DNA from: a virus
Lineage: Duplodnaviria > Heunggongvirae > Uroviricota > Caudoviricetes
IMG/VR virus record: IMGVR_UViG_2875703104_000004
Direction: 5' to 3' (one strand)
Length of the DNA stretch: 64,000 nt
In this document: piece by piece, positions 25,074 through 58,483 of the stretch
Layout of the letters: each line of letters opens with the position of its first letter
Numbering within the stretch: position 1 is the stretch's first letter
Notes under the pieces: generated by a model
Told to the model about the DNA's origin: nothing
The model's database searches: none
The model's input: only the letters and a program-made list of their open reading frames with translations
Translations under genes and position numbers: made by a program

Positions 25074-25130
25074 CACGTTATCAGGCCACCGCGTTGGCCT
25101 GACTGATTTCTTAATGAAAGGAACTGATTT

Positions 25131-26159: not shown

Positions 26160-26165
26160 TCCGTG

Positions 26166-26196: not shown

Positions 26197-26210
26197 CACA
26201 GGAGGCTGAG

Positions 26211-26940: not shown

Positions 26941-26955
26941 ACGCAGGGTGAAATT

Positions 26956-27881: not shown

Positions 27882-27888
27882 GGACGAT

Positions 27889-28635: not shown

Positions 28636-28653
28636 AGAGCTGAGAGATAAGCG

Positions 28654-29085: not shown

Positions 29086-29111
29086 ACTTTGCCCTCAGAC
29101 TGGCGCGTGAG

Positions 29112-29525
29112 ATGGGGAGACCCGACTGGCGCGCCATGCTTGCCGGGATGACATCCACCGAATATGCCGACTGGCACCGTTTTTACCGCACGCATTATTT
29201 TCAGGATACCCAGCTGGATATGCATTTTTCCGGGCTGACGTACGCTGTACTCAGCCTGTTTTTTTGCGATCCGGATATGCATCCCTCTGATTTCAGTCTG
29301 CTTGTCCCCCGGCATGAGGAAGAGCAGGTGGAGAGGCCGGATGAGGACAAAATGCTGATGCAGAAAGCGGCAGGACTTGCCGGAGGCGTCCGGTTCGGTG
29401 GGGACGGAGGGCGCGATATTTTATCGTCTGTGGATGTGGCGGATGTCATGGTGGATGATGCCGCATTAATGATGGCTTCAGCGGGGATTCCGGGAGGTGT
29501 GAGATATGTCCCAGCCGGTTGGTGA
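29112..29525 (+). CDS. T: T segment of the G-T frameshift fusion
   Basis: -1 frame relative to G, entered at the GGGAAAG at 29061-29067. Confidence 0.75.
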   Translation: MGRPDWRAMLAGMTSTEYADWHRFYRTHYFQDTQLDMHFSGLTYAVLSLFFCDPDMHPSDFSLLVPRHEEEQVERPDEDKMLMQKAAGLAGGVRFGGDGGRDILSSVDVADVMVDDAALMMASAGIPGGVRYVPAGW

Positions 29526-32217
29526 TCTTGTTATTGACCTGAGTCTGGATGCTGTCCGTTTCGATGAGCAGATGAGCCGGGTAAGGCGTCATTTTTCAGG
29601 TCTGGATACCGACGCCAGAAAAACCGCCAGTGCTGTTGAACAGGGCCTGAGCCGCCAGGCGCTGGCTGCACAAAAAGCCGGGATTTCCGTCGGGCAGTAT
29701 AAAGCGGCCATGCGAACCCTGCCCGCACAGTTTACGGATATCGCCACGCAGCTTGCCGGTGGTCAGAATCCCTGGCTGATCCTGCTGCAACAGGGCGGTC
29801 AGGTGAAGGACTCCTTCGGCGGGATGATCCCCATGTTCAGGGGGCTTGCCGGTGCGATCACCCTGCCGATGGTCGGGGTCACCTCGCTGGCGGTGGCGAC
29901 AGGTGCGCTGGTGTACGCCTGGTACCAGGGAGATTCCACGCTTTCAGCGTTTAATAAAACCCTGGTTCTTTCCGGTAATCAGTCCGGACTGACTGCCGAT
30001 CGCATGCTGACGCTCTCCAGAGCCGGACAGGCCGCAGGGCTGACGTTTAACCAGGCGAGTGAGTCACTGGCAGCCCTGGTGAATGCCGGTGTGCGTGGTG
30101 GTGAACAGTTTGATGCCATCAACCAGAGTGTCGCGCGTTTTGCTTCTGCATCCGGTGTGGAGGTGGACAAGGTTGCAGAGGCTTTCGGAAAACTGACCAC
30201 TGACCCGACGTCGGGGCTGATTGCGATGGCGAAGCAGTTCCATAACGTGACGGCGGAGCAGATTGCGTATGTTGCTCAGTTGCAGCGTTCCGGCGATGAA
30301 GCCGGGGCATTGCAGGCGGCGAACGAGGCCGCAACGAAAGGGTTTGATGACCAGACCCGACGCTTGAAAGAGAACATGGGCACGCTGGAAACCTGGGCAG
30401 ACAGGACAGCACGGGCATTCAAATCCATGTGGGATGCGGTGCTGGATATTGGTCGTCCTGATACCGCGCAGGAGATGCTGATTAAGGCAGAGGCCGCGTT
30501 TAAGAAAGCGGACGATATCTGGAATCTGCGCAAGGATGATTATTTTGTTAACGATGAAGCGCGGGCGCGTTACTGGGATGATCGTGAAAAGGCCCGTCTT
30601 GCGCTTGAAGCCGCCCGAAAGAAGGCTGAGCAGCAGAGTCAACAGGACAAAAATGCGCAGCAGCAGAGCGATACCGAAGCGTCACGGCTGAAATATACCG
30701 AAGAGGCGCAGAAGGCTTACGAACGGCTGCAGACGCCGCTGGAGAAATATACCGCCCGTCAGGAAGAACTGAACAAGGCACTGAAAGACGGGAAAATCCT
30801 GCAGGCGGATTACAACACGCTGATGGCGGCGGCGAAAAAGGATTATGAAGCGACGCTGAAAAAGCCGAAACAGTCCGGCGTGAAGGTGTCTGCGGGCGAT
30901 CGTCAGGAAGACAGTGCTCATGCTGCCCTGCTGACGCTTCAGGCNGAACTCCGGACGCTGGAGAAGCATGCCGGAGCAAATGAGAAAATCAGCCAGCAGC
31001 GCCGGGATTTGTGGAAGGCGGAGAGTCAGTTCGCGGTACTGGAGGAGGCGGCGCAACGTCGCCAGCTGTCTGCACAGGAGAAATCCCTGCTGGCGCATAA
31101 AGATGAGACGCTGGAGTACAAACGCCAGCTGGCTGCACTTGGCGACAAGGTTACGTATCAGGAGCGCCTGAACGCGCTGGCGCAGCAGGCGGATAAATTC
31201 GCACAGCAGCAACGGGCAANNNNNNNNNNNNNNNNNNNNNTGGCGCATAAAGATGAGACGCTGGAGTACAAACGCCAGCTGGCTGCACTTGGCGACAAGG
31301 TTACGTATCAGGAGCGCCTGAACGCGCTGGCGCAGCAGGCGGATAAATTCGCACAGCAGCAACGGGCAAAACGGGCCGCCATTGATGCGAAAAGCCGGGG
31401 GCTGACTGACCGGCAGGCAGAACGGGAAGCCACGGAACAGCGCCTGAAGGAACAGTATGGCGATAATCCGCTGGCGCTGAATAACGTCATGTCAGAGCAG
31501 AAAAAGACCTGGGCGGCTGAAGACCTGCTTCGCGGGAACTGGATGGCAGGCCTCAGGTCCGGCTGGAGTGAGTGGGAAGAGAGTGCCACGGACAGTATGT
31601 CGCAGGTAAAAAGTGCAGCCACGCAGACCTTTGACGGTATTGCACAGAATATGGCAGCGATGCTGACCGGCAGCGAACAGAACTGGCGTGGTTTCACCCG
31701 TTCTGTGCTGTCCATGCTGACAGAGATTTTTCTGAAGCAGGCGATGGTGGGGATTGTCGGGAGTATCGGCAGCGCTATTGGCGGGGCTGTTGGTGGCGGC
31801 GCATCCGCGTCAGGCGGTACAGCCATTCAGGCCGCTGCGGCGAAATTCCATTTTGCAACCGGAGGATTTACGGGAACCGGCGGCAAATATGAGCCAGCGG
31901 GGATTGTTCACCGTGGTGAATTTGTCTTCACGAAGGAGGCAACCAGCCGGATTGGTGTCGGCAACCTGTATCGTCTGATGCGCGGGTATGCGGAAGGTGG
32001 TTATGTCGGCGGTGCCGGAAGTCCGGCGCAGATGCGGCGGGCCGAAGGTATTAATTTTAATCAGAACAATCACGTGGTGATTCAGAACGACGGTATCAAC
32101 GGACAGGCGGGGTCGCAGCTGATGAAGGCGGTGTATGACATGGCCCGCAAGGGGGCACAGGATGAACTCCGGCTGCAGTTGCGTGATGGCGGTCTGTTAT
32201 CAGGGAGCGGTCGATGA
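29506..32217 (+). CDS. H: tail tape measure protein H (contains an N-run and a redundant block)
   Basis: 903-aa ORF paralogous to 7558..10054; N-run at 31220-31240 flanked by duplicated ~132-bp blocks. Confidence 0.8.
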   Translation: MSQPVGDLVIDLSLDAVRFDEQMSRVRRHFSGLDTDARKTASAVEQGLSRQALAAQKAGISVGQYKAAMRTLPAQFTDIATQLAGGQNPWLILLQQGGQVKDSFGGMIPMFRGLAGAITLPMVGVTSLAVATGALVYAWYQGDSTLSAFNKTLVLSGNQSGLTADRMLTLSRAGQAAGLTFNQASESLAALVNAGVRGGEQFDAINQSVARFASASGVEVDKVAEAFGKLTTDPTSGLIAMAKQFHNVTAEQIAYVAQLQRSGDEAGALQAANEAATKGFDDQTRRLKENMGTLETWADRTARAFKSMWDAVLDIGRPDTAQEMLIKAEAAFKKADDIWNLRKDDYFVNDEARARYWDDREKARLALEAARKKAEQQSQQDKNAQQQSDTEASRLKYTEEAQKAYERLQTPLEKYTARQEELNKALKDGKILQADYNTLMAAAKKDYEATLKKPKQSGVKVSAGDRQEDSAHAALLTLQXELRTLEKHAGANEKISQQRRDLWKAESQFAVLEEAAQRRQLSAQEKSLLAHKDETLEYKRQLAALGDKVTYQERLNALAQQADKFAQQQRAXXXXXXXXAHKDETLEYKRQLAALGDKVTYQERLNALAQQADKFAQQQRAKRAAIDAKSRGLTDRQAEREATEQRLKEQYGDNPLALNNVMSEQKKTWAAEDLLRGNWMAGLRSGWSEWEESATDSMSQVKSAATQTFDGIAQNMAAMLTGSEQNWRGFTRSVLSMLTEIFLKQAMVGIVGSIGSAIGGAVGGGASASGGTAIQAAAAKFHFATGGFTGTGGKYEPAGIVHRGEFVFTKEATSRIGVGNLYRLMRGYAEGGYVGGAGSPAQMRRAEGINFNQNNHVVIQNDGINGQAGSQLMKAVYDMARKGAQDELRLQLRDGGLLSGSGR

Positions 32218-32543
32218 AAACCTTTCGCTGGAAAGTGAAGCCGGATATGGAGGTGAACTCGCAGCCATCGGTGCGTGAAGTGCGTTTTGGTGACGGGTAC
32301 TCACAGCGTATGGCGGCAGGGCTGAATGCTGACCTGAAAACATACAGGGTGACGCTTTCCGTGACCCGGGAGGAGGCCCGGCATCTGGAAGCGTTCCTGG
32401 CAGAGCACGGTGGCTGGAAGGCATTTTTGTGGAAGCCACCCTATGCATACCGGCAGATAAAGGTGACCTGTGCCGGGTGGTCTGCGCGGGTCGGGATGTT
32501 GCGCGTTGAGTTCAGCGCGGAGTTTAAGCAGGTGGTGAACTGA
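32214..32543 (+). CDS. M: minor tail protein M
   Basis: Paralogue of 10051..10380. Confidence 0.85.
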   Translation: MKTFRWKVKPDMEVNSQPSVREVRFGDGYSQRMAAGLNADLKTYRVTLSVTREEARHLEAFLAEHGGWKAFLWKPPYAYRQIKVTCAGWSARVGMLRVEFSAEFKQVVN

Positions 32544-33178
32544 TGCAGGATATTCGCGAAGAAAGTCTGAACGAGTCGGTTAAGTCAGAGCAGTCACCGC
32601 GGGTGGTACTCTGGGAAATCGACCTGACGGTACAGGGTGGTGAGCGGTATTTTTTCTGTAATGAGCTGAATGAAAAAGGGGAGCCGGTCACCTGGCAGGG
32701 GCGTAAGTATGAGGCATACCCGATTGACGGCAGCGGCTTTGAGATGAACGGCCGGGGCAGCAGTGCCAGACCGTCGCTGACGGTGTCGGTCCGCCGCCGG
32801 GTGTATGCCCGTTTTCTGGATGCGGTGAATTTCGTTGCGGGCAATCCGGAGGCGGACCCGGAGCAGGAGCTGAGTGACCGCTGGGTGGTGGAGCAGATGT
32901 CGCAGCTGACAGCCATGACGGCCTCGTTTGTGCTGGCTACACCGACCGAGACGGACGGGGCGCTGTTTCCCGGTCGCATCATGCTGGCGAACACCTGTAT
33001 GTGGGATTACCGGGGAGATGAATGCGGGTATAACGGTCCTGCGGTGGCGGATGAGTTCGATAAACCCACCACGGATATCCGTAAGGACAGATGCAGCAAG
33101 TGCATGCGCGGGTGTGAACTGCGCAGGAATGTCGGCAATTTTGGCGGTTTCCTTTCCATTAATAAACTTTCGCAGTAA
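32543..33178 (+). CDS. L: minor tail protein L (21 codons shorter than the other copies)
   Basis: 211-aa ORF; lacks the segment NLFGLVTGMAEDLQSLVGATV present in the other L copies. Confidence 0.75.
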   Translation: MQDIREESLNESVKSEQSPRVVLWEIDLTVQGGERYFFCNELNEKGEPVTWQGRKYEAYPIDGSGFEMNGRGSSARPSLTVSVRRRVYARFLDAVNFVAGNPEADPEQELSDRWVVEQMSQLTAMTASFVLATPTETDGALFPGRIMLANTCMWDYRGDECGYNGPAVADEFDKPTTDIRKDRCSKCMRGCELRRNVGNFGGFLSINKLSQ

Positions 33179-33374
33179 ATCCCGGTTTATGAGGCAGTCT
33201 GTGTTATGTATCTTCTTTCGGGTGGGTACAGGGCAGTGCGCGATTTCTGGCGCAGGCAGATTGATAAAAGGGCCGCTGAGAGAATCAGCGCCAGTCAGTC
33301 AGCCGGAAGCAAACCCGAAGATCCGCTCATTCCGTAGTCACTTTCTTGACAACACCTTTCAACGAGAAAATCCC

Positions 33375-33620
33375 ATGTCAGAAATCACATCCCTGGTCAC
33401 TGCTGAGGCAGTGAAGGAAGTCCTGCGCTCTGAAGAAGTCCNGAGNGCACTGAAACAGAAACTCCGCCAGAACCTTGAGNCGCGTCTTGATGCAGAAGTG
33501 GATGCCATTCTGGATGAGCTGCTGGGCGTACCAGCGGTTCCGGAGCCGGAAGGTATCGCGGGTGACGGGAGTGCTTCAGATGGCGGTGAACCCACACCTG
33601 ACAGCGACATGATGATGTAA
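33375..33620 (+). CDS. hypothetical small acidic protein
   Basis: 82-codon ORF starting [17 protein letters not shown] with a strongly acidic C-terminus; contains ambiguous bases; no match recognised. Confidence 0.3.
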
Positions 33621-33696
33621 GCCTGCGCAAGGGACCATCGGTGTGTGCCGGTGGTCTTTATATTGTTGTGAGCTTCCGGATAACGGGAGACGGGGT

Positions 33697-34062
33697 ATGT
33701 ACCAGATGGAAAAAATCACAACAGGTGTGTCATACACCACGTCAGCGGTGGGAACGGGCTACTGGTTCCTGCAGTTGCTGGACAGGGTTTCCCCGTCTCA
33801 GTGGGCGGCAATAGGCGTGCTGGGGAGTCTGCTGTTTGNNNNNNNNNNNNNNNNNNNNNAAAAAATCACAACAGGTGTGTCATACACCACGTCAGCGGTG
33901 GGAACGGGCTACTGGTTCCTGCAGTTGCTGGACAGGGTTTCCCCGTCTCAGTGGGCGGCAATAGGCGTGCTGGGGAGTCTGCTGTTTGGGCTGCTGACAT
34001 ATCTGACTAACCTGTATTTCAAAATCAGAGAGGACCGGCGTAAGGCGGCGCGGGGAGAGTAA
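33697..34062 (+). CDS. S: class II holin / pinholin (phage 21 S-like); ORF inflated by a redundant block around an N-run
   Basis: [26 protein letters not shown]...[40 protein letters not shown]: two TM segments, charged C-terminus, dual-start M..M; 33711-33838 repeated after the N-run 33839-33859. Confidence 0.75.
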
Positions 34063-34066
34063 AGCG

Positions 34067-34417
34067 ATGAAGAAAAAATACGAACTGGTTGTTAAAGGGA
34101 TAAATAATTACCCGGATAAGATTACTGTTACTGTGGCACTGGAAGTTGGTGGGTATCCGTCACTGTTGTTGCCAGATGTGGCGATTAGTCTTGACCGTAC
34201 TGAAGGTGCCACGCTGGAGTTTTACGAAGCTGAGGCGAAAAAGCAGGCGAAGCAGTTTTTCATGGATGTTGCTGCCGGGTTATGTGAAGGGAACGAACCG
34301 TTGCCGGAAAAGCGCCCCGTGATTTTAGAGGCGCAGAATGTATGGATAACCTACAAAGGAAATCTACCGGGAAGAATTACTGGTTCTCTGAAGACTCCAC
34401 CGGAATCACAACCTTAA
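34067..34417 (+). CDS. hypothetical protein between holin and endolysin
   Basis: 116-aa ORF starting 5 bp after the holin stop; no signal peptide or TM segment; no family recognised. Confidence 0.5.
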   Translation: MKKKYELVVKGINNYPDKITVTVALEVGGYPSLLLPDVAISLDRTEGATLEFYEAEAKKQAKQFFMDVAAGLCEGNEPLPEKRPVILEAQNVWITYKGNLPGRITGSLKTPPESQP

Positions 34418-34480
34418 TTCACTGACCGGAACAGATAAACCTGTCCGTGGGCAGAAACCGATAAATCCTGATAAATATCC

Positions 34481-35014
34481 ATGAACGCAAAAATCAGATA
34501 CGGCCTGTCGGCTGCCGTTCTGGCGCTGATTGCCGCTGGTGCGCCTGCGCCTGACATTCTCGACCAGTTTCTGGATGAAAAGGAAGGTAACCACACCACG
34601 GCATACCGTGATGGTGCGGGGATCTGGACCATCTGCCGTGGTGCCATCATGGTGGATGGTAAACCTGTTGTTCCAGGCATGAAGTTGTCGAAGGCAAAAT
34701 GCGACCGGGTTAACGCCATTGAGCGTGATAAGGCGCTGGCATGGGTGGAGAAAAACATCAGAGTGCCACTGACCGAACCCCAGAAAGCGGGGATCGCGTC
34801 ATTCTGTCCGTACAACATTGGTCCCGGTAAGTGTTTCCCGTCGACGTTTTACAGACGAATTAATGCAGGTGATCGAAAAGGTGCCTGCGAAGCGATTCGC
34901 TGGTGGATTAAGGACGGTGGCAGAGACTGCCGTATTCGTTCAAACAACTGTTACGGTCAGGTATCCCGTCGCGACCAGGAGAGTGCGCTGGCGTGCTGGG
35001 GAATTGACAGATAA
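34481..35014 (+). CDS. R: SAR endolysin (T4-lysozyme-like, GH24)
   Basis: N-terminal weakly hydrophobic Ala/Gly-rich segment YGLSAAVLALIAAGAPAP; catalytic E-x8-D-x5-T in EGNHTTAYRDGAGIWT. Confidence 0.8.
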   Translation: MNAKIRYGLSAAVLALIAAGAPAPDILDQFLDEKEGNHTTAYRDGAGIWTICRGAIMVDGKPVVPGMKLSKAKCDRVNAIERDKALAWVEKNIRVPLTEPQKAGIASFCPYNIGPGKCFPSTFYRRINAGDRKGACEAIRWWIKDGGRDCRIRSNNCYGQVSRRDQESALACWGIDR

Positions 35015-35105
35015 GCAGAATATTTTGCTGAAAAATGCGGTTTGCTCACACGGACGGATAACACGAAATCCTGCGAACTGACAAAAACTAAGTGAATAAA
35101 AGTAA

Positions 35106-35140
35106 AAACCCCGTTTGTTGGCTGCAAGCGGGGTTTTGTG
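35106..35140 (+). terminator. terminator-like hairpin downstream of the endolysin
   Basis: aaccccg...cggggtt stem followed by TTTTGTGTTT. Confidence 0.4.
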
Positions 35141-35173
35141 TTTCCTGACTCTGGAAAAGTCAAAGGAGAAAGT

Positions 35174-35311
35174 GTGTTTGATTTTAGCAAACTGATTCGG
35201 GAGATTCGAGTGATGGCTGAAAAATTATCCACCTGGAAGTTCATTCTTATCTGGCTGGTGTTTGTGATTATGGCCTCCGGTTATTTCATCGGTCAGATAC
35301 GCTGGTGGTGA
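35174..35311 (+). CDS. hypothetical 45-aa single-pass membrane peptide
   Basis: GTG start 5 nt after [50 protein letters not shown]; stop 1 nt before the Rz ATG. Confidence 0.4.
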
Positions 35312-35312
35312 A

Positions 35313-35807
35313 ATGAACCGCGTACTGTGCGTGGTCATCATTGCCCTGCTGGTGGCCTGTGGTGCGCTTAGTCTGGGGCTGAATCATTACCGTGATAACG
35401 CCATAACCTACAAAGCCCAGCGCGACAAAAATGTCAGAGAACTGAAGCTGGCGAACGCGGCAATTACTGACATGCAGATGCGTCAGCGTGATGTTGCTGC
35501 GCTCGATGCAAAATACTCGAGGGAATTAGCCGATGCGAGAGCTGAAAATGAAACTCTTCGCGCTGACGTTGCCGCTGGTCGTAAGCGCCTGCGTATCAAC
35601 GCCACCTGTCCAGGTCCCGTGCGTGAAGCCACCGGTACCGCCCGCGTGGATAATGCAACCGGCCCCCAACTGGCAGACACCGCTGAACGGGATTATTTCA
35701 TCCTCAGAGAACGGCTGATGACAATGCAGAAGCAGCTGGAAGGGGCGCAGGAATATATCCGCACTCAGTGCACTAAGCTGGCTTTTTATTATCCGGAGGA
35801 TACATGA
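35313..35807 (+). CDS. Rz: i-spanin Rz
   Basis: N-terminal TM segment then [42 protein letters not shown], coiled-coil rich, as in lambda Rz. Confidence 0.85.
35533..35718 (+). CDS. Rz1: o-spanin Rz1, embedded in the +1 frame of Rz
   Basis: [15 protein letters not shown] lipobox, then Pro-rich [27 protein letters not shown]. Confidence 0.8.
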
Positions 35808-36028
35808 AGAAATTACGGGTAACCGTAGAACCTTTTCAGGGAACAATTCCGTTCCGTATTTTGCAGCGTGGTCGTGTTCTTGTTGAAGGTTCGTTCAGTG
35901 GTAAATGTACGCAATTACACTCCCGGACCTTTCAGGTGAATGCCACGAATGAAGAGCTAACCGTGGAGTGTACGATGAATGCCGCTAAATGCCGCATGGT
36001 ATCCGCTGCATTACAGCCAGTGTGTTGA
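35804..36028 (+). CDS. hypothetical protein overlapping the Rz stop
   Basis: 74-aa ORF whose ATG overlaps the Rz stop (ATGA); no signal peptide; no family recognised. Confidence 0.35.
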
Positions 36029-36226
36029 GCGACCTTATTATCCATGCGCGGTATTGTCGCCGTATTCCTGCATTAACAGAGACCGCAGCCCGACAGGGAG
36101 ACTCCTCTGCGCGAGTGTGCGGGGATAATCAAAAACGATACACACCGGGGTTTACCGCGTTAACGGAGCGCGGCGTTGTCCCCTCATAGTCGCCTGTCCG
36201 GTGCGATGGTGGAAGAAACCGAACGT

Positions 36227-36427
36227 TCATTTCTCGTTATTTGTCATGCTGGTCGGGCGCAGATGCGTTGCATCTGTTGCCAGCCTTCTCCTGCAGGCTT
36301 CAATAACCCACGCTGAAAAGTTACCGGACCCTTTATGCTCAAGGGCTATGTTGATTTGTTCAATTATGTGATTGGGGAAACGGATATTGCGGGTTGTGGT
36401 TCTGCGGGTCCGGTTTTTCGATGACAT
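36227..36427 (-). CDS. small basic protein, possible ribbon-helix-helix DNA-binding protein
   Basis: 66-aa ORF MSSKNRTRRTTTRNIRFPNHIIEQINIALEHKGSGNFSAWVIEACRRRL with AGGA RBS 7 nt upstream; divergent from the HNH gene. Confidence 0.35.
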   Translation of the reverse strand: MSSKNRTRRTTTRNIRFPNHIIEQINIALEHKGSGNFSAWVIEACRRRLATDATHLRPTSMTNNEK

Positions 36428-36468
36428 ATTTATTTCCTTTACTGATTGCCATATGACGGGGATTTTAC

Positions 36469-36834
36469 ATGGCTGAGCTTCGTACACTCCAGAGCAGAAT
36501 CAAAACACTGAATACCCGACGGGTGAATATTCTGAAGGGGGAACAGCGTCGTGTCAGTGGCAGTGCACGTGTTTCCCTCAAGCGTCATATCTGGCTGAGG
36601 GACGCCGGGCAGTGCTGTATCTGTGGTCGTGTGGTTGACCTCTGTGACAGTGAACTCGATCACCGAATTGCACTTCAGTTCGGTGGTGGTAATGAGGAGA
36701 CGAATCTCTGGACGCTCTGTACCGAATGCCATCGACAAAAGTCTGCTCGTGAAGCGGCGGGTGGTATGCCGGACCCGACGCTGCCGGAGGTGTCCGGAGG
36801 TAGTGACAGAGCGGACGACATCATCGGACTGTAA
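36469..36834 (+). CDS. HNH endonuclease, packaging-associated type
   Basis: CCICG..(n)..DHRIALQFGG..NLWTLCTECHRQK is an HNH zinc-finger nuclease motif; located immediately upstream of the terminase genes. Confidence 0.8.
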   Translation: MAELRTLQSRIKTLNTRRVNILKGEQRRVSGSARVSLKRHIWLRDAGQCCICGRVVDLCDSELDHRIALQFGGGNEETNLWTLCTECHRQKSAREAAGGMPDPTLPEVSGGSDRADDIIGL

Positions 36835-36926
36835 CCCGACCCGGGGGGGGTATCATCCGGCGTAAAAAACGATCGCTTTGGACACCGCGCCCCCTCTCAC
36901 GCAGAGAAAAAATTCCCGTTTCAGGG

Positions 36927-37052
36927 CAGTTAACATGTTAACTGGCTGCCCGGGCATTTTTGCGGTTTTTATCTTTATTATTCAGTTTGTTGTGCGGAAA
37001 AAATGTTAACAGGCTTTTTCAGCAAATGTTAACCAGGCAGCAGTTAACATTT
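36927..37052. promoter_or_regulatory. cluster of GTTAAC-containing repeats (candidate cos / terminase recognition region)
   Basis: 18-bp palindrome cagttaacatgttaactg at 36927-36944, aaatgttaac at about 37001 and 37024, inverted copy gttaacattt at about 37043. Confidence 0.45.
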
Positions 37053-37125
37053 GCGGCATGAGACGCCGGGGAAAAATGGGCTGAACCATACCCGGCTGAG
37101 TGCGTTCTGGACCCGGGAGGAGGCT

Positions 37126-37689
37126 GTGCTGACAACGCAAAAACGAAAATTTGCGCTGGCGCTCATGTCCGGGAAAAACAAAACAGCGTCAGCCATTGCC
37201 GCCGGTTATTCGGCGAAGACCGCCAGGGTTAAAGGCTCGCAGCTGGCAAAAGATCCGGAGGTGCTTGCGTTTATAGCCCGTAAACAATGCGAGACGGTGG
37301 AGGTGGATGAGGTTCCTGTTTACCGGCAGAAAAAATCAGAGCAGGAGGATAAACCCCGTCGCCGTGAGGCGGCTGCAATACCTCAGCCGGACGAAAATAA
37401 TCCGGAGATGCCACCGTCCGCGGTGATGTCTCCTGGTATTGAATATATGGAGGATGGTCTTCCCGATCCGGTGAAAGCCATGGGGCGGATCCTGGTGGAA
37501 AACCTCTGCATTGATCCGAAACTGGCACTGGATGCGGCCTGGCGTCTGGCGCAGTTCACGCACCATAAAAAAGGGGATACCGGGAAAAAATCGGCAAAAG
37601 GTGATGCCGCGAAAAAAGCGGCTAACCGTTTTGCGGTGCCACCGCCACCCCGACTGGTGGTGAATAACGATAATGAGGGCAACGGATGA
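37126..37689 (+). CDS. terminase small subunit
   Basis: GTG start after GGGAGGAGG; TTQKRKFALALMSGKNKTASAIAAGYSAKTARVKGSQLAKDPEV is the typical TerS HTH. Confidence 0.75.
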   Translation: MLTTQKRKFALALMSGKNKTASAIAAGYSAKTARVKGSQLAKDPEVLAFIARKQCETVEVDEVPVYRQKKSEQEDKPRRREAAAIPQPDENNPEMPPSAVMSPGIEYMEDGLPDPVKAMGRILVENLCIDPKLALDAAWRLAQFTHHKKGDTGKKSAKGDAAKKAANRFAVPPPPRLVVNNDNEGNG

Positions 37690-39347: not shown

Positions 39348-39372
39348 CCCTGCTCACCCTGTAACCATCATG

Positions 39373-39396
39373 AACCGCTGCGGCGGTTTTTTTTAT
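39373..39396 (+). terminator. rho-independent terminator after TerL
   Basis: aaccgc-tgcg-gcggtt hairpin followed by a T8 run. Confidence 0.55.
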
Positions 39397-39411
39397 TTTC
39401 AGGAGGCTGAT

Positions 39412-50553: not shown

Positions 50554-51408
50554 TGCAGGATATTCACGAAGAAAGTCTGAACGAGTCGGTTAAATCAGAG
50601 CAGTCACCGCGGGTGGTACTCTGGGAAATCGACCTGACGGTACAGGGCGGTGAGCGGTATTTTTTCTGTAATGAGCTGAATGAAAAAGGGGAGCCGGTCA
50701 CCTGGCAGGGGCGTAAGTATGAGGCATACCCGATTGACGGCAGCGGCTTTGAGATGAACGGCCGGGGCAGCAGTGCCAGACCGTCGCTGACGGTGTCCAA
50801 TCNGTGGTGAGCGGTATTTTTTCTGTAATGAGCTGAATGAAAAAGGGGAGCCGGTCACCTGGCAGGGGCGTAAGTATGAGGCATACCCGATTGACGGCAG
50901 CGGCTTTGAGATGAACGGCCGGGGCAGCAGTGCCAGACCGTCGCTGACGGTGTCCAATCTGTTCGGTCTGGTCACCGGGATGGCGGAAGACCTGCAGAGT
51001 CTGGTGGGGGCCACGGTGGTCCGCCGCCGGGTGTATGCCCGTTTTCTGGATGCGGTGAATTTCGTTGCGGGCAATCCGGAGGCGGACCCGGAGCAGGAGC
51101 TGAGTGACCGCTGGGTGGTGGAGCAGATGTCGCAGCTGACAGCCATGACGGCCTCGTTTGTGCTGGCTACACCGACCGAGACGGACGGGGCGCTGTTTCC
51201 CGGTCGCATCATGCTGGCGAACACCTGTATGTGGGATTACCGGGGAGATGAATGCGGGTATAACGGTCCTGCGGTGGCGGATGAGTTCGATAAACCCACC
51301 ACGGATATCCGTAAGGACAGATGCAGCAAGTGCATGCGCGGGTGTGAACTGCGCAGGAATGTCGGCAATTTTGGCGGTTTCCTTTCCATTAATAAACTTT
51401 CGCAGTAA
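50553..51408 (+). CDS. L: minor tail protein L (contains a redundant block around n 50803)
   Basis: L N-terminus to about codon 84, n at 50803, then L restarts from about codon 33 and runs to the LSINKLSQ stop at 51408. Confidence 0.7.
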
Positions 51409-52576
51409 ATCCCGGTTTATGACACAGACTGAATCAGCGATTCTGGCGCATGCCCGGCGGTGTGTGCCTGCGGAGTCGTGCGGCTTAGTGGTGAGAACGC
51501 CGGAGGGGGAGCGGTATATCCCTTGTGTGAATATCTNCCAATCTGTTCGGTCTGGTCACCGGGATGGCGGAAGACCTGCAGAGTCTGGTGGGGGCCACGG
51601 TGGTCCGCCGCCGGGTGTATGCCCGTTTTCTGGATGCGGTGAATTTCGTTGCGGGCAATCCGGAGGCGGACCCGGAGCAGGAGCTGAGTGACCGCTGGGT
51701 GGTGGAGCAGATGTCGCAGCTGACAGCCATGACGGCCTCGTTTGTGCTGGCCACACCGACCGAGACGGACGGGGCGCTGTTTCCCGGTCGTATCATGCTG
51801 GCGAACACCTGTATGTGGACCTACCGCTCTGATGAGTGTGGTTACACGGGCGGGGCAGTGGCGGATGAGTTCGATAAACCCACCACGGATATCCGTAAGG
51901 ACAGATGCAGCAAGTGCATGCGCGGGTGTGAACTGCGCAGGAATGTCGGCAATTTTGGCGGTTTCCTTTCCATTAATAAACTTTCGCAGTAAATCCCGGT
52001 TTATGACACAGACTGAATCAGCGATTCTGGCGCATGCCCGGCGGTGTGTGCCTGCGGAGTCGTGCGGCTTNCTTTGAGATGAACGGCCGGGGCAGCAGTG
52101 CCAGACCGTCGCTGACGGTGTCCAATCTGTTCGGTCTGGTCACCGGGATGGCGGAAGACCTGCAGAGTCTGGTGGGGGCCACGGTGGTCCGCCGCCGGGT
52201 GTATGCCCGTTTTCTGGATGCGGTGAATTTCGTTGCGGGCAATCCGGAGGCGGACCCGGAGCAGGAGCTGAGTGACCGCTGGGTGGTGGAGCAGATGTCG
52301 CAGCTGACAGCCATGACGGCCTCGTTTGTGCTGGCTACACCGACCGAGACGGACGGGGCGCTGTTTCCCGGTCGCATCATGCTGGCGAACACCTGTATGT
52401 GGGATTACCGGGGAGATGAATGCGGGTATAACGGTCCTGCGGTGGCGGATGAGTTCGATAAACCCACCACGGATATCCGTAAGGACAGATGCAGCAAGTG
52501 CATGCGCGGGTGTGAACTGCGCAGGAATGTCGGCAATTTTGGCGGTTTCCTTTCCATTAATAAACTTTCGCAGTAA
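51409..52576. repeat. two redundant 584-bp blocks, each K 5' end + n + L 3' part
   Basis: L stop codons at 51408, 51992 and 52576 (period 584 bp); n at 51539 and 52071 marks the jump from K sequence back into L. Confidence 0.8.
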
Positions 52577-52586
52577 ATCCCGGTTT

Positions 52587-53330
52587 ATGACACAGACTGA
52601 ATCAGCGATTCTGGCGCATGCCCGGCGGTGTGTGCCTGCGGAGTCGTGCGGCTTAGTGGTGAGAACGCCGGAGGGGGAGCGGTATATCCCTTGTGTGAAT
52701 ATCTCTGCAGAGCCGGAGGCGTATTTTCGTATTGCACCGGAAGACTGGCTGCGGGCAGAGATGCAGGGGGAGATTGTGGCACTGGTCCACAGTCATCCCG
52801 GTGGGCTGCCCTGGCTGAGCGAGGCTGACCGGCGGCTGCAGATAAAAAGCGCACTGCCCTGGTGGCTGGTCTGCCGGGGTGACATTCACAAATTCCGCTG
52901 CGTGCCGCACCTGACGGGACGGCGCTTTGAGCACGGGGTGACGGACTGTTACACCCTGTTCCGGGATGCATACCATCTGGCGGGGACTGAAATGCCGGAT
53001 TTTCATCGCGAGGATGACTGGTGGCGCAACGGTCAGAACCTTTACCTGGACAATATGGCGGTCACCGGCTTTTACCGGGTGCCCCTGTCCTCTGCACAGG
53101 CGGGCGATATTCTGCTGTGCTGCTTTGGTGCTTCGGTACCGAACCATGCCGCCATTTACTGCGGCAACGGTGAGCTGCTTCACCATCTGCCTGAACAACT
53201 GAGTAAACGGGAGAGGTATTCCGAAAAATGGCAACGACGAACGCATTCTGTCTGGCGTCACCGCCACTGGCACGCATCTGCCTTCACGGGGATTTGCAAC
53301 GATTTGGCCGCCGCCTCAGCCTGTATGTGA
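52587..53330 (+). CDS. K: tail assembly protein K
   Basis: Starts MTQTESAILAHARRC..; HSHPGG motif; paralogue of 11084..11827. Confidence 0.85.
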   Translation: MTQTESAILAHARRCVPAESCGLVVRTPEGERYIPCVNISAEPEAYFRIAPEDWLRAEMQGEIVALVHSHPGGLPWLSEADRRLQIKSALPWWLVCRGDIHKFRCVPHLTGRRFEHGVTDCYTLFRDAYHLAGTEMPDFHREDDWWRNGQNLYLDNMAVTGFYRVPLSSAQAGDILLCCFGASVPNHAAIYCGNGELLHHLPEQLSKRERYSEKWQRRTHSVWRHRHWHASAFTGICNDLAAASACM

Positions 53331-53908
53331 ACACGGCAGCGGAAGCCATTCGCGCCCTGTCGATGCAGATGCCGGGCTTTCGCCGTCAGATGAACGAAGG
53401 CTGGTACCAGATACGTATTGCCGGTGATGACACGGCACCGGAGGCGGTGTATGCCCGTCTTCACGAACAGCTGGGTGAGGGAACGGTCATCCACATTGTG
53501 CCGCGACTGGCCGGGGCCGGAAAGGGTGGACTGCAGATTGTGCTGGGGGCGGCAGCCATCGTGGGCTCTTTCTTCACGGCCGGAGGCTCGATGGCGTTAT
53601 GGGGTACAGCCCTGAGTGCCGGTGGTTTTTCTGCCACCACGATGCTGTTTTCACTGGGTGCCAGCATGATACTGGGCGGAGTGGCCCAGATGCTGGCCCC
53701 GAAGGCAAAAACACCGGATTACCGCGCAACGGATAACGGCAGACAGAACACGTACTTTTCCTCGCTGGATAACATGATTGCCCAGGGGAACCCGATGCCG
53801 GTGCCTTACGGGGAAATGCTGGTTGGCTCCCGCCGTATATCCCAGGACATCAGTACCCGTGATGAAGGCGGGGGCGGAAAGGTCGTGGTTATCGGGCGGC
53901 AGGGGTAA
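53228..53908 (+). CDS. I: tail assembly protein I
   Basis: 226-aa ORF overlapping the 3' end of K; paralogue of 11725..12396. Confidence 0.75.
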   Translation: MATTNAFCLASPPLARICLHGDLQRFGRRLSLYVNTAAEAIRALSMQMPGFRRQMNEGWYQIRIAGDDTAPEAVYARLHEQLGEGTVIHIVPRLAGAGKGGLQIVLGAAAIVGSFFTAGGSMALWGTALSAGGFSATTMLFSLGASMILGGVAQMLAPKAKTPDYRATDNGRQNTYFSSLDNMIAQGNPMPVPYGEMLVGSRRISQDISTRDEGGGGKVVVIGRQG

Positions 53909-54251
53909 AAAGAATAAAAAAATCCCGCAGTGATCGCGGACAGGAACTGCGGGAGAGTTACGAAGATTAAGTGTAAGGAATTATTCTTATATCACGACAA
54001 AAAAATTAACGCAGAGAAATTATACGCGCCACAGTCAGTTTGTGAAAATGTGAAGATATTCAGAATTTTTATGCCATTACCGGTTTTAACCAACAGGATT
54101 ATCGGTGGGCATGAAAGAAAACCCCGGTATCTGCTGATACCGGGGTTTCTCTTTAGCATGGCAGAAATGTGTTTCATGCTTTTCGGGCGAAGGATATCCG
54201 ACTTCTGTACGGAATGGCAAGTGGCGGTTAATTTATTCAGGGGAAGGCTGT

Positions 54252-57200
54252 ATGGGAAAAGGTGGCGGTAAGGCACACACGCCTCGTGAGGCGAAGGATA
54301 ATCTCAAATCCACGCAGATGATGAGTGTGATTGATGCGATTGGTGAGGGACCGATAGAAGGTCCGGTGAAGGGACTGCAGAGTATTCTGGTGAACAAAAC
54401 CCCACTGACGGACACGGACGGCAATCCCGTGATACACGGTGTGACGGCGGTCTGGCGTGCCGGGGAGCAGGAGCAGACACCACCGGAAGGCTTTGAGTCC
54501 TCCGGAGCTGAAACCGGACTGGGTGTGGAAGTGACGAAGGCAAAGCCGGTGACGCGCACCATTACGTCCGCGAACATTGACCGCCTGCGGGTTACCTTCG
54601 GGGTGCAGTCACTGGTGCAGACCACGTCAAAGGGCGACCGTAACCCGGCATCCGTCCGCCTGCTGATTCAGTTACAGCGTAATGGCCGCTGGGTGACGGA
54701 AAAGGATGTCACCATTAACGGCAAGACCACCTCGCAGTTCCTGGCCTCGGTGATTCTGGATAATCTGCCGCCCCGGCCCTTTAACATCCGGATGGTCCGG
54801 GAGACGGCGGACAGCACCACGGACCAGTTGCAGAACAGAACGCTCTGGTCATCGTACACTGAAATCATCGATGTGAAACAGTGCTACCCGAACACGGCCA
54901 TTGTGGGGCTGCAGGTGGATGCGGAGCAGTTCGGCGGCCAGCAGATGACGGTGAACTACCATATCCGCGGTCGCATCATTCAGGTGCCGTCAAACTATGA
55001 CCCGGAAAAACGCACGTACAGTGGTATCTGGGACGGCAGTCTGAAACCGGCATACAGCAACAATCCGGCCTGGTGTCTGTGGGACATGCTGACTCACCCG
55101 CGCTACGGCATGGGAAAACGTCTGGGGGCGGCGGATGTGGACAAGTGGGCGCTGTATGCCATCGGGCAGTACTGCGACCAGACGGTCCCGGATGGTTTCG
55201 GGGGGACCGAGCCGCGGATGACCTTTAATGCGTACCTGGCACAACAGCGTAAGGCGTGGGACGTTCTCAGTGATTTCTGCTCTGCGATGCGCTGTATGCC
55301 GGTATGGAACGGTCAGACGCTGACGTTCGTTCAGGACCGCCCGTCGGATGTGGTGTGGCCGTACACCAACAGCGATGTGGTGGTGGATGATAACGGCGTG
55401 GGATTCCGCTACAGCTTCAGTGCCCTGAAGGACCGGCACACGGCGGTGGAGGTGAATTACACCGACCCGCAGAACGGCTGGCAGACATCCACGGAACTGG
55501 TGGAAGACCCGGAAGCCATACTGCGCTACGGACGCAACCTGCTGAAGATGGACGCGTTCGGCTGTACCAGCCGCGGTCAGGCCCACCGTGCCGGGCTGTG
55601 GGTGATAAAGACCGAACTGCTGGAAACGCAGACGGTGGATTTCACGCTCGGGTCTCAGGGGCTGCGGCACACACCCGGTGACATCATTGAAATCTGTGAT
55701 AACGACTATGCCGGGACCCTGACCGGCGGACGTGTCCTGTCCATTGATGCTGCCACCCGCACCCTGACGCTGGACCGTGAAGTGACACTGCCGGAGACCG
55801 GTGCCGCCACGGTGAACCTGATTAACGGCAGTGGTAAGCCGGTGAGTGTGGACATCACCGAACACCCCGCGCCGGACCGGATACAGGTCAGTACCCTGCC
55901 TGATGGTGTGGAGACATACGGGGTGTGGGGACTCTCCCTGCCGTCACTGCGCCGTCGCCTGTTCCGCTGTGTCTCCGTCCGGGAAAACACGGACGGCACC
56001 TTTGCCATCACGGCGGTGCAGCACGTACCGGAAAAAGAAGCCATCGTGGATAACGGTGCCCGCTTTGAGCCGCAGTCAGGTTCCCTGAACAGCGTCATCC
56101 CACCGGCAGTGCAGCACCTGACGGTGGAGGTGAGCGCAGCTGACGGCCAGTATCTGGCGCAGGCGAAATGGGACACGCCGCGGGTGGTGAAGGGTGTGCG
56201 CTTCAGTCTGCGCCTGACCAGTGGTAAGGGAGCGGATGCCAGACTGGTGACCACCGCCATCACTGCCGATACGGAGCACCGTTTCAGTGGCCTGCCACTG
56301 GGGGAATACACCCTGACGGTCAGGGCGATTAACAGTTATGGCCAGCAGGGCGAACCGGCCACCACCACCTTCCGGATTAACGCGCCAGCAAAACCCGCCA
56401 CCATTGAACTGACGCCGGGGTATTTTCAGATAACGGCGGTCCCGCGTCTTGCGGTGTATGACCCGACGGTACAGTTTGAATTCTGGTTCTCAGAAAAACG
56501 CATCACGAACACAGCACAGGTGGNAAAATCTGCCCGTTATCTGGGGACCGGCAGTCAGTGGACTGTCCAGGGGAGCCGGATTAAGCCGGGGACGGATTTC
56601 TGGTTTTACGTGCGAAGCGTCAACCTGGTGGGAAAATCTGCTTTTGTGGAAGCCAGCGGGCAGCCCAGCAATGATGGTGAAGGGTATCTGGAAATTTTCC
56701 GGGGGCTGATAGATGAGACGCTTCTGGGCCAGGCACTGAAAGAGCGCATTGATGCTTCAGCGCTGCGTACGGAGGTCACGCAACTGGAAGAAGATATCCG
56801 TCAGCGGATGGACACGGATATCGCAGAAGTGACCCGGAAAATCGGGAAGGCGGAAAACAGCCTCACGCAGCTGGTTGCGAAAAAGAATGAGGACCAGACA
56901 CTGGCCATCGCGCAGGTGAGCCAGAAAGTGGACCGGGTGAGCAGTGAAATCTCACAGACTGTCAGCCAGGGGCAGTCAGAAAACGCCCGACAGATAGCAC
57001 AGGTCCGCCAGTACGTGGATAAAAAAGGGAGTGAAATTACCTCGACCACGGATAAAAAGCTGGGTGACCAGGCCGTGACCATACAGCAAATCCAGCGGGT
57101 TCAGTCAGACACGCGCAATGAGCTGAATGCCATGTATATGCTGAAGGTGCAGAAAACAAAAAACGGTATTCCCTATGTGGCCGGGATTGGCGCGGGGATT

Positions 57201-57944
57201 GAGGATGTTGATGGTCAGACCCTGAGTAACATTCTGCTGCAGGCCGATCGCATTGCGATGATTACCCCGGAGAACGGCAACACCACGCCGCTGTTTGTGG
57301 CGCAGGGGAATCAGCTGTTCATGAACGACGTGTTCCTGAAGCGACTGTTTGCGGTGAGCATCACGTCATCCGGCAATCCTCCGACGTTTTCCCTGACGCC
57401 GGATGGCAGGCTGACAGCCCGCAATGCGGATATCAGTGGAGCCATCACGGCGAATACCGGCACGCTCAATAATGTCACCATTAACGAGAACTGTGTCATC
57501 AGAGGGAAACTGTCTGCAAACCAGATTGAAGGCGATCTCGTTAAAACAGTGGGTAAGGCTTTCCCCCGTGACTCCCGTGCACCGAAGCGTTGGCCATCAG
57601 GAACCATTACCGTCAGGGTTTATGACGATCAGCCGTTTAACCGGCAGATTGTTATTCCGGCGGTGGCTTTCAGCGGTGCCAGACATGAGCGGGAGAACAG
57701 CGATACTTATTCGTCATGCCGCCTGATAGTGAAGAAAAACGGTGCTGAAATTTATAACCGTACCGCGATGGATAATACGCTGGTTTACAGTGGTGTTATT
57801 GATATGCCTGCTGGTCGCGGCCACATGACGCTGGAGTTTTCTGTATCAGCATGGTGGGTAAATGGCTGGTATCCCACAGCAAGTATCAGCGATTTGCTGG
57901 TTGTTGTGATGAAGAAAGCCACTGCAGGCATCACGATTAGCTGA
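54252..57944 (+). CDS. J: tail tip / host specificity protein J (intact)
   Basis: 1230-aa ORF; N-terminal two-thirds collinear with 12457..15916, with a different central/C-terminal region. Confidence 0.9.
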
Positions 57945-57962
57945 ATTTTATAACCCCAATAC

Positions 57963-57988
57963 GGGCGCCAGAAATGGCGCCTTTTTTA
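57963..57988 (+). terminator. rho-independent terminator downstream of J
   Basis: gggcgcc-agaaat-ggcgcc plus TTTTTT, identical to 15935-15960. Confidence 0.6.
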
Positions 57989-58011
57989 TTGCAGAAAAGC
58001 GAGAGGTAATT

Positions 58012-58483
58012 ATGCGTAAAGTTTGTGCAGCCATTTTGTCCGCAGCCATCTGTCTGTCCGTATCCGGTGCGCCTGCATGGGCGTCTGAACATCAGTCCAC
58101 ACTGAGCACAGGGTATCTTCATGCCCGTACGAACGCTCCCGGCAGCGATAATCTGAACGGGATTAACGTGAAATACCGTTATGAGTTTACGGACACGCTG
58201 GGGCTGGTGACGTCATTCAGTTATGCCAATGCCAAAGATGAGCAAAAAACGCATTACAGCGATACCCGCTGGCATGAAGATTCCGTGCGTAACCGCTGGT
58301 TCAGCGTCACGATGTGCTGACCGGAAGTGATGACGGTCGCCACAGCAATACGTCTCTGGCGTGGGGGGCTGGCGTGCAGTTTAACCCGACCGAATCCGTG
58401 GCCATTGATATTGCTTATGAAGGCTCCGGCAGTGGTGACTGGCGCACTGACGGTTTCATCGTGGGGGTCGGTTATAAATTCTG
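58012..58483 (+). pseudogene. lom: Ail/Lom-family outer membrane protein gene with internal deletion and frameshift
   Basis: MRKVCAAILSAAICLSVSGAPAWASEHQSTLSTGYLHARTN..; after ..RNRWFSV the frame jumps to the C-terminal ..LTGSDDGRHSNTSLAWGAGVQFNPTESVAIDIAYEGSGSGDWRTDGFIVGVGYKF. Confidence 0.75.

What the first reader, a model, noticed from the sequence alone, without database searches (positions are those of the whole stretch)
33170..33700. Tail module ends exactly at the K start codon and continues into a lysis module; inverted 9-mer at the breakpoint
After the L stop the sequence matches the other copies through ..cccggtttatga and then diverges. The first divergent bases (ggcagtctgtg) contain cagtctgtg, the reverse complement of the cacagactg that starts K in the third module. 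Module 2 therefore has no K, I or J. This is either a short-homology inversion or recombination breakpoint, or a chimeric join.
Basis: seen in the sequence. Interest (0 to 1): 0.45.

Follow-up and report, generated by a model that had tools for sequence, protein, structure and literature searches.

The report
Assembly stitching join between two prophages
The abrupt switch from a phage tail gene into a phage lysis module is where two short-read assembly pieces from two E. coli prophages were placed end to end in a poorly stitched genome record; it is not a biological rearrangement.

Summary
Identity to the other L/K copies runs through ...CCCGGTTTATGA (33192). Base 33193 starts 38 nt inside a DUF1378 gene, followed by DUF826, a P21-type holin, DUF1327, lysozyme and Rz. 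CAGTCTGTG (33195-33203) is the reverse complement of the CACAGACTG that follows the K start.

The join is almost certainly an assembly artefact. The window comes from GenBank CP035330.1. It is a chain of pieces with single Ns, 21-N runs, 116/150-nt tandem duplications and 60-63-nt skips.

In the complete genome SCU-204 the left side is one prophage (99.7-100% identity). The right side is a second prophage 178 kb away (100% over 7.8 kb), with seven named core genes (pth, prs, ispE, lolB, hemA, prfA, kdsA) between them. Both prophages share near-identical DUF1378-holin and K-I-J blocks.

The last 405 bp before the join is an exact copy of a piece found twice more in the window, where it runs on into an intact K. 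It spans exactly 150 nt before its first and 149 nt after its last allele-specific variant, as expected for a read- or k-mer-limited assembly piece.

The join is blunt and absent from 5,426 complete E. coli genomes, 50,697 phage records and three contig collections. The inverted 9-mer is unlikely by chance (about 4e-5 to 8e-4), but no simple mechanism turns it into this join. It remains an unexplained coincidence.

The parts
31241..32787 (+). Last long piece of module 2 (3' part of tape-measure gene H, M, 5' two-thirds of L). It ends 149 nt after its last copy-specific variant (32638).
   Evidence: 100% identical to SCU-204 prophage A, L002 28846-30392. Variants against the module-3 copy lie at 32526, 32556, 32584 and 32638.
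32543..33178 (+). Tail protein L gene, artificially 211 aa because 63 nt are skipped at 32787|32788.
   Evidence: Pfam Phage_tail_L in two stretches. The skip relative to L002 and to window 50955-51017 is shown. Joining the overlapping pieces rebuilds a 232-aa L.
32788..33192 (+). 405-bp piece: L 3' end (allele 'a'), the L-K spacer and K's ATG+A. It is a redundant exact copy of 51018-51422 and 52186-52590.
   Evidence: 0 mismatches to both copies, and 20 mismatches (32938-33043) to allele 'b' at 51602-52006. Start = first variant - 150; end = last variant + 149.
33192..33193 (.). The join itself: blunt, 0 nt of shared sequence. It lies between prophage-A-type L/K DNA and the interior of a DUF1378 gene.
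   Evidence: BLAST hits to complete genomes and phages stop at query base 293 or start at base 294, with none spanning.
33195..33203 (.). CAGTCTGTG, the reverse complement of CACAGACTG at the start of K (51423-51431, 52007-52015, 52591-52599).
   Evidence: chance 4e-5 to 8e-4. The three other blunt joins in the window have no inverted match longer than 6 nt.
33193..33337 (+). 3' remnant of a DUF1378 gene, lacking its first 38 nt (start codon and most of the N-terminal hydrophobic stretch).
   Evidence: Pfam DUF1378 profile 15-59/59. Alignment to E. coli S88 and SCU-204, where the CDS starts 38 nt upstream.
33375..33620 (+). DUF826 gene with Ns at 33442, 33446 and 33480, i.e. a collapsed consensus of more than one prophage copy.
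   Evidence: Pfam DUF826 1-75/75. 33442 and 33446 are exactly the sites where S88-type and SCU-204-type alleles differ.
33697..34062 (+). P21-type class II holin gene, inflated by an artefactual 150-nt tandem repeat (33710-33859 = 33860-34009, with the last 21 nt of the first copy written as N).
   Evidence: Pfam Phage_holin_2_1 hits in two stretches.
34067..35807 (+). Rest of the lysis cassette: DUF1327/YdfR (34067-34417), lysozyme (34481-35014) and Rz (35313-35807). It is contiguous with the module-3 terminase and head genes.
   Evidence: Pfam. Window 33193-41000 is 100% identical and collinear with SCU-204 prophage B and at least 7 other complete genomes.
50804..51536 (+). Piece that carries the real continuation of module 2: the last 151 nt of 31241-32787, the 63 nt missing from module 2, L allele 'a', the intact L-K junction and the first 117 nt of the K reading frame (114 nt beyond ATGA).
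   Evidence: 50804-50954 = 32637-32787 at 100%, and 51018-51422 = 32788-33192 at 100%. Reconstruction.
52072..58307 (+). L 3' end (allele 'a'), K, I, J and the 5' half of lom. This is the single representation of the K-I-J block that prophages A and B share.
   Evidence: 99.7% identical to both SCU-204 A and B. In SCU-204, A, B and the window are identical from the position aligned to window 52599 onwards, apart from the N at 56524. K Pfam domains.

Best explanation
The join at 33192|33193 is a stitching artefact in a short-read-derived 'chromosome' record (GenBank CP035330.1).

The source strain carries at least two lambdoid prophages that share two near-identical blocks: SASA-esterase/DUF1378/DUF826/holin upstream, and L-3'/K/I/J downstream. 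The assembler could resolve only the copy-specific stretches. It produced pieces that end about 150 nt (one read or k-mer length) beyond the last copy-specific base.

The pieces were then written out one after another, without merging overlaps or filling gaps. The shared K-I-J block was written only once, after module 3. Module 2's last piece ends 149 nt past its last variant, which happens to fall one base after K's ATG. The next piece in the list was placed directly after it. That piece is a collapsed DUF1378-DUF826 consensus which begins right after a polymorphic site.

Shown: the mosaic map, the exact copies, the distances to variants and the absence of the join elsewhere. Inferred: the assembler's behaviour and why the pieces were put in this order.
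For: 1. The window is visibly stitched. It has 21-N runs at 31220-31240 and 33839-33859, each closing a 150-nt tandem repeat. Single Ns sit between overlapping pieces at 23293, 50803, 51537 and 52071. N-free tandem repeats of period 116 and 150 occur at 589-821, 21991-22223, 17838-18138 and 23817-24117. There are skips of 60 and 63 nt at 9068 and 32787.

2. The two sides are separate prophages in a complete genome. Window 16663-33192 matches SCU-204 prophage A near potB at 99.7-100%, except the last 405 bp (97.5%). Window 33193-41000 matches SCU-204 prophage B near trp at 100%. A and B lie 178 kb apart on the same strand.

3. A and B share the blocks that would confuse an assembler: A 9864-13052 = B 8018-11206 (99.8%) and A 30129-36836 = B 27508-34220 (99.2%). 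K, I and J proteins are identical.

4. 32788-33192 is 100% identical to 51018-51422 and 52186-52590, and both of those continue into K.

5. Piece ends sit at a fixed distance from the nearest variant between copies: 32787 = 32638+149, 32788 = 32938-150, 33192 = 33043+149. At the join at 705 the flanking variants are 555 and 855, each exactly 150 nt away. At 9068 the next variant is 9217 (149-150 nt away). Two joins show variant-free spacing of exactly 300 nt in the window, where the true spacing is 184 nt and 363 nt.

6. The base just left of 33193 is polymorphic (C in S88, T in SCU-204). The Ns at 33442 and 33446 mark the same two allele types collapsed into one piece.

7. Joining the overlapping pieces rebuilds a full 232-aa L and a 247-aa K that is 100% identical to SCU-204's K.

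8. The join is absent elsewhere. None of 5,426 complete E. coli genomes or 50,697 phage records spans it, though about 1,900 E. coli genomes hold one or both halves. The junction 31-mer is absent from GTDB genome contigs, IMG/VR and JGI metagenome contigs. The artefactual 211-aa L is on record in one contig only, CP035330.1.

9. The 178 kb between A and B holds pth, prs, ispE, lolB, hemA, prfA and kdsA. These are essential in E. coli K-12 by my recollection of published gene-knockout work; I did not check that here.
Against: - No raw reads were available, so absence of read support is inferred, not shown.
- There is no N and no duplicated overlap at this particular join, unlike most others in the window.
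- I could not identify the assembler or scaffolder, nor explain why these pieces were placed next to each other with host DNA left out.
- The +/-150 rule does not hold at every boundary. The left side of 9068 is 209 nt from its last variant, the piece ending at 50802 is 154 nt, and piece 51538-52070 is about 213 nt on each side.
- The inverted 9-mer at the join has a chance probability of only about 4e-5 to 8e-4, and this model leaves it unexplained.
Confidence: 0.93

Rival explanations
1. A real illegitimate (non-homologous) recombination event in the source strain joined prophage A at the L/K boundary to prophage B inside DUF1378. It would exist either as a chromosomal deletion or as a minority or extrachromosomal molecule that the assembler picked up.
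For: The join is clean, with no N and no duplicated overlap. Both partners lie on the same strand and in chromosomal order in related genomes, so the topology fits a deletion. The inverted 9-mer is statistically unusual.
Against: - There are 0 nt of microhomology.
- As a chromosomal deletion it would remove pth, prs, ispE, lolB, hemA, prfA and kdsA, which by my recollection are essential in E. coli K-12.
- The left end lies exactly 149 nt after the last allele-specific variant, and the right end lies immediately after a polymorphic site. That is expected for assembly pieces, not for a DNA break.
- The same L allele continues into K twice in the window.
- The join is absent from all collections searched.
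Confidence: 0.04
2. An inversion or template switch between the inverted 9-mers (CACAGACTG at the K start, CAGTCTGTG in DUF1378) produced the junction.
For: The 9-mer pair is real and lies within 2 nt of the join.
Against: Recombination or strand switching at inverted repeats would give L-ATGA-CACAGACTG followed by the reverse complement of the DNA upstream of the DUF1378 9-mer (CCGTACAG...). What is observed instead is ATGA-GG-CAGTCTGTG followed by forward-strand DUF1378, DUF826 and holin, collinear with the downstream late operon at 100% identity. The segment after the join is therefore not inverted, and K's copy of the repeat is missing. The three other blunt joins in the window carry no such repeat.
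Confidence: 0.01
3. A natural lambdoid mosaic boundary: a hybrid phage in which a tail module was exchanged for a lysis module by recombination at a gene boundary.
For: Lambdoid phages are mosaics, and the L/K boundary is where the prophage-specific L sequence meets the conserved K-I-J block in SCU-204.
Against: - The right side starts inside a gene, 38 nt into DUF1378, not at a gene boundary.
- The resulting genome would carry two complete head and terminase sets, and only one K-I-J.
- No phage or prophage record has this arrangement.
Confidence: 0.01

Closest known systems
Repeat-induced misjoins and collapsed repeats in short-read assemblies of E. coli genomes with several lambdoid prophages (my own general knowledge of assembly behaviour)
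   Same: Near-identical prophage blocks are represented once. Pieces end one read or k-mer length into the repeat. Variant sites are written as N. Unrelated unique pieces end up next to each other.
   Different: Here the pieces were also written out without trimming overlaps or filling gaps. This gives exact 116/150-nt tandem repeats and 60-63-nt skips, and the result was deposited as one 5.11-Mb chromosome record. I could not identify the program responsible.
Lambdoid phage mosaicism (module exchange at gene boundaries)
   Same: The left breakpoint lies at the L/K gene boundary, where prophage-specific sequence meets a block shared between prophages.
   Different: The right breakpoint lies inside a gene. 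There is no flanking homology, the resulting gene order is not functional, and the arrangement does not recur in other genomes.
Inverted chimeras formed at short inverted repeats during amplification or library preparation (recalled from memory, for example multiple-displacement-amplification chimeras; not checked here)
   Same: A short inverted repeat lies at a junction between two unrelated loci.
   Different: Such chimeras keep one copy of the repeat and continue on the opposite strand. Here the downstream DNA is on the same strand and K's copy of the repeat is absent.

Membership tests
Assembly/scaffolding chimeric join | The junction is not reproduced in independent assemblies, although both halves are common. 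| tested here: met
   0 of 5,426 complete E. coli genomes and 0 of 50,697 phage records span it, while about 1,900 genomes hold a half. The junction 31-mer is absent from three contig collections.
Assembly/scaffolding chimeric join | Piece ends are set by read or k-mer length relative to repeat variants. | tested here: met
   32787, 32788, 33192, both sides of 705 and the right side of 9068 lie 149-150 nt from the nearest variant between copies. Three other boundaries do not fit.
Assembly/scaffolding chimeric join | Other stitching artefacts occur in the same record. | tested here: met
   N runs, single-N joins, unmerged 116/150-nt overlaps, 60- and 63-nt skips and a triplicated L region.
Assembly/scaffolding chimeric join | No reads or read pairs span the junction. 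| not testable with these tools
Illegitimate or short-homology recombination junction | Microhomology, or at least a plausible repair signature, at the join. | tested here: not met
   0 nt are shared between the retained and displaced flanks.
Illegitimate or short-homology recombination junction | The resulting genome is viable. | tested here: not met
   The 178 kb between the two partners in SCU-204 includes pth, prs, ispE, lolB, hemA, prfA and kdsA. That these are essential in E. coli K-12 is my recollection, not checked here.
Inversion between inverted repeats | DNA beyond the breakpoint is reverse-complemented relative to its native context, and one repeat copy is kept at the junction. | tested here: not met
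   33193-41000 is collinear and on the same strand as in complete genomes. The junction reads ATGA-GG-CAGTCTGTG, not ATGA-CACAGACTG-CC....
Lambdoid mosaic module boundary | The boundary lies between genes and recurs in other phages or prophages. | tested here: not met
   The right side starts 38 nt inside DUF1378, and no other record has the arrangement.

The most novel reading that the evidence does not exclude
The junction exists in real DNA of the isolate, for example as a minority rearranged or extrachromosomal molecule formed between two resident prophages, with the inverted 9-mer somehow involved in bringing the two sites together.
Probability: 0.04. Interest if true: 0.3.

Novelty: not a real feature. 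Interest (0 to 1): 0.05.

Why it matters
It matters only as a quality flag. This part of CP035330.1 is a concatenation of unmerged assembly pieces. Its gene order, truncated genes (L, DUF1378, holin, tape-measure H, portal, lom) and apparent 'three tail modules in a row' should not be used for prophage comparisons or as evidence of recombination.

If the join were real, it would be an ordinary illegitimate recombination between two prophages, of modest interest.

Tried and rejected
- **Inverted 9-mer as mechanism.** I worked through strand switching and recombination between inverted repeats. Both predict L-ATGA-CACAGACTG followed by inverted DUF1378-upstream DNA, which is not what is seen. 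The three other blunt joins have no inverted match longer than 6 nt.
- **Junction 31-mer searches.** Exact searches in GTDB genome contigs, IMG/VR and JGI metagenome contigs found nothing.
- **Source record in the RefSeq set.** I tried to read it as NZ_CP035330.1 and it is not there.
- **Literature.** Searches for CP035330, GCA_004116855 and neighbouring accessions gave nothing about the assembly method.
- **DNA beyond the window.** I looked up artefact-specific ORFs: two were not on record, and one returned only unrelated IS/plasmid-type contigs.
- **A single k-mer model.** I tried to explain every duplication and gap with one k (k = 150, 151 or 152, with or without trimming one base). No single model fits both the period-150 repeats and the asymmetric -150/+149 piece ends, so I do not name an assembler.
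- **Module-3 'b' allele L.** A quick reconstruction from pieces 50553-50802 and 51538-52070 came out frameshifted. I did not pursue it.

Full report
**1. The observation**

The region reads as described.
- The L-like ORF ends at 33178.
- The spacer and K's ATG+A (…AAATCCCGGTTTATGA) run to 33192 and are identical in the three L/K copies of module 3.
- From 33193 module 2 reads GGCAGTCTGTGTTATG…, while the others read CACAGACTGAATCAG….
- CAGTCTGTG (33195-33203) is the exact reverse complement of the CACAGACTG that follows K's ATGA.
- Random pairs of window positions give an inverted match of at least 9 nt in 4e-5 (11-nt flanks) to 7.8e-4 (20-nt flanks) of trials.

Pfam identifies the downstream ORFs:
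- a DUF1378 remnant (profile positions 15-59 of 59)
- DUF826
- a P21-type holin
- DUF1327/YdfR
- phage lysozyme
- Rz

**2. What the two sides are**

Megablast of 32900-33500 against 5,426 complete E. coli genomes found about 1,900 genomes with one or both halves, and none that spans the join. Hits cover query bases 1-293 or 294-601. The same holds for 50,697 phage records.

In E. coli S88 and SCU-204 the right half starts 38 nt inside an annotated DUF1378 CDS. That CDS lies downstream of a SASA-family esterase gene and upstream of DUF826, holin, YdfR, lysozyme and Rz. The join is blunt, with no base shared between the retained and displaced flanks.

**3. The window is a stitched chain of pieces**

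Signs of stitching:
- Two 21-N runs (31220-31240 and 33839-33859), each closing an exact 150-nt tandem repeat.
- Single Ns between overlapping pieces at 23293, 50803, 51537 and 52071.
- N-free tandem repeats of period 150 (17838-18138, 23817-24117) and period 116 (589-821, 21991-22223).
- An L region present three times in module 3.
- Scattered single Ns inside some pieces.

Mapping to complete genomes:

| Window | Best match | Identity |
|---|---|---|
| 1-16662 | ABU 83972 / Nissle-type prophage next to sitD | 99.7-100% |
| 16663-33192 | SCU-204 prophage A next to potB | 99.7-100% (last 405 bp 97.5%) |
| 33193 to about 58300 | SCU-204 prophage B next to trp | 100% over 33193-41000 |

- The first segment has one 116-nt duplication and one 60-nt skip.
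- The second is laid out as overlapping pieces with one 63-nt skip.

An exact look-up of the artefactual 211-aa L protein found a single contig: GenBank CP035330.1 (GCA_004116855.1), 5,110,451 bp. That record is not in the RefSeq complete-genome set searched here.

**4. Why the join falls exactly there**

In SCU-204, prophages A and B lie 178 kb apart on the same strand. They share two near-identical blocks:
- SASA esterase, DUF1378, DUF826 and holin (99.8% over 3.2 kb).
- L-3', K, I, J and lom (99.2% over 6.7 kb). This block is identical from the position aligned to window 52599 onwards, and the K, I and J proteins are identical.

A short-read assembler cannot separate such copies. The window shows the expected consequences.

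*The last piece before the join is a redundant copy.*
- 32788-33192 has 0 mismatches to 51018-51422 and 52186-52590, both of which run on into K.
- It differs from the third copy (allele 'b', 51602-52006) at 20 sites between 32938 and 33043.
- The piece therefore spans exactly first variant - 150 to last variant + 149.

*Neighbouring pieces follow the same rule.*
- The preceding piece ends at 32787, which is its last copy-specific variant (32638) + 149.
- At the join at 705 the flanking module-1/module-2 variants are at 555 and 855, each 150 nt away, with none between.
- At the 9068 skip the next variant is 9217, which is 149-150 nt from the join.
- Two joins thus show a variant-free spacing of exactly 300 nt in the window. 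The true spacings are 184 nt (inflated by a 116-nt duplication) and 363 nt (shortened by the 63-nt skip).

This is the signature of pieces clipped at one read or k-mer length beyond the last distinguishing base and then abutted. That 33043+149 falls one base after K's ATG is a coincidence.

*The rule is not universal.* The left side of 9068 (209 nt), the piece ending at 50802 (154 nt) and piece 51538-52070 (about 213 nt on each side) do not fit.

*The right-hand piece also starts at a variant.*
- 33193-33838 is a collapsed consensus. Its Ns at 33442 and 33446 are exactly the sites where S88-type and SCU-204-type alleles differ.
- The next upstream differences between those alleles lie at -1 and -18 from 33193, and the sequences diverge completely from -83.
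- The piece therefore begins immediately after a polymorphic base.

**5. K, I and J are not missing**

Piece 50804-51536 begins with 151 nt identical to 32637-32787. It contains the 63 nt that module 2 lacks, then allele 'a', the intact L-K junction and the first 117 nt of the K reading frame. It overlaps 52072-52704 by 633 identical nt, and that piece continues through K, I and J.

Joining these overlaps gives a 232-aa L and a 247-aa K that is 100% identical to SCU-204's K. Allele 'a' matches SCU-204 prophage A at the variant cluster, and allele 'b' matches prophage B. So module 2's L continues into K within the same data set. The K-I-J block was simply written once, after module 3.

**6. Rival readings**

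*A real deletion between the two prophages.* It would remove pth, prs, ispE, lolB, hemA, prfA and kdsA, which lie between A and B in SCU-204. By my recollection these are essential in E. coli K-12; I did not check that here. It would also have to coincide with two assembly-determined positions.

*An inversion or strand switch at the 9-mers.* This predicts L-ATGA-CACAGACTG followed by inverted upstream DNA. Instead, the DNA after the join is on the same strand and collinear with its own late operon.

*A natural mosaic boundary.* This is excluded because the right side starts inside a gene and no other record has the arrangement.

The three other blunt joins in the window (16662|16663, 32787|32788 and about 9068) carry no inverted repeat longer than 6 nt. 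The 9-mer is therefore not a general property of these joins. I regard it as an unexplained coincidence that was noticed after the fact.

**7. Verdict**

This is an assembly-stitching artefact in a low-quality chromosome record, not a biological feature.

What remains unproven is the absence of spanning reads, and which program produced the layout. Confidence in the artefact reading is about 0.93. About 0.04 remains for a real, probably minority, illegitimate recombinant.

Noticed in passing
window 589-821, 21991-22223, 17838-18138, 23817-24117, 31091-31390, 33710-34009: Exact tandem repeats of period 116 or 150 nt that are absent from near-identical complete genomes. In two of them the last 21 nt of the first copy are written as N (129 + 21 = 150). 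They break the portal, tape-measure and holin reading frames.
   Followed up: yes
window 9068 and 32787|32788: Blunt skips of 60 nt (tape-measure gene of module 1) and 63 nt (L of module 2) relative to ABU 83972, SCU-204 and other copies in the window.
   Followed up: yes
window 50534-52704: The L region of module 3 is written three times. The pieces are separated by single Ns at 50803, 51537 and 52071 and carry two alleles ('a' twice, 'b' once), as if an assembly-graph bubble had been written out in series.
   Followed up: yes
window 16662|16663: A second chimeric join. Module 1 stops in the middle of a tail-fibre gene (ABU 83972 L003 19634) and is followed by DNA that lies between Rz and the small terminase gene in SCU-204 prophage A. 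Only 2 nt (GA) are shared at the join.
   Followed up: partly
window 1-16662 versus 16663-58300: Module 1's best matches are ABU 83972, Nissle 1917 and related strains. Modules 2 and 3 best match SCU-204, MCJCHV-1 and EcPF40. I did not check whether one complete genome carries all three prophages.
   Followed up: no
window 58307|58308 and 58308-59993: lom is cut after 100 of 199 profile positions. Two copies of the tail-fibre N-terminal domain follow (58543, 59575), with overlapping pieces and 11 Ns at 59120-59291. This looks like more collapsed and stacked pieces.
   Followed up: partly
window 60197-64000: An IS3-family element (orfA 60197-60523, orfB 60520-61410) is followed by a truncated transposase and a 140-aa ORF (62246-62668). 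Elsewhere that ORF lies on small IS-rich contigs, one of them with plasmid-type (Rep3/relaxase) genes. No host chromosomal genes separate the prophage pieces anywhere in the window.
   Followed up: partly
window 12457-15916: J of module 1 appears as two overlapping ORFs (12457-14418 and 14297-15916). Segment 9065-16662 is 24 nt shorter than its ABU 83972 counterpart, so J may be frameshifted or carry another small stitching error.
   Followed up: no
window 43077-43517: An internal direct repeat (279 nt, 80% identity, offset 162 nt) lies in a module-3 head-region gene annotated in SCU-204 as a frameshifted portal protein. The window has 162 nt more than SCU-204 prophage B here.
   Followed up: no
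window 33179-33337 (L006 3637-3795): The gene calls on record for the source contig list a 52-aa 'DUF1378' product that starts right after the L stop codon. This is a chimeric ORF created by the join.
   Followed up: no
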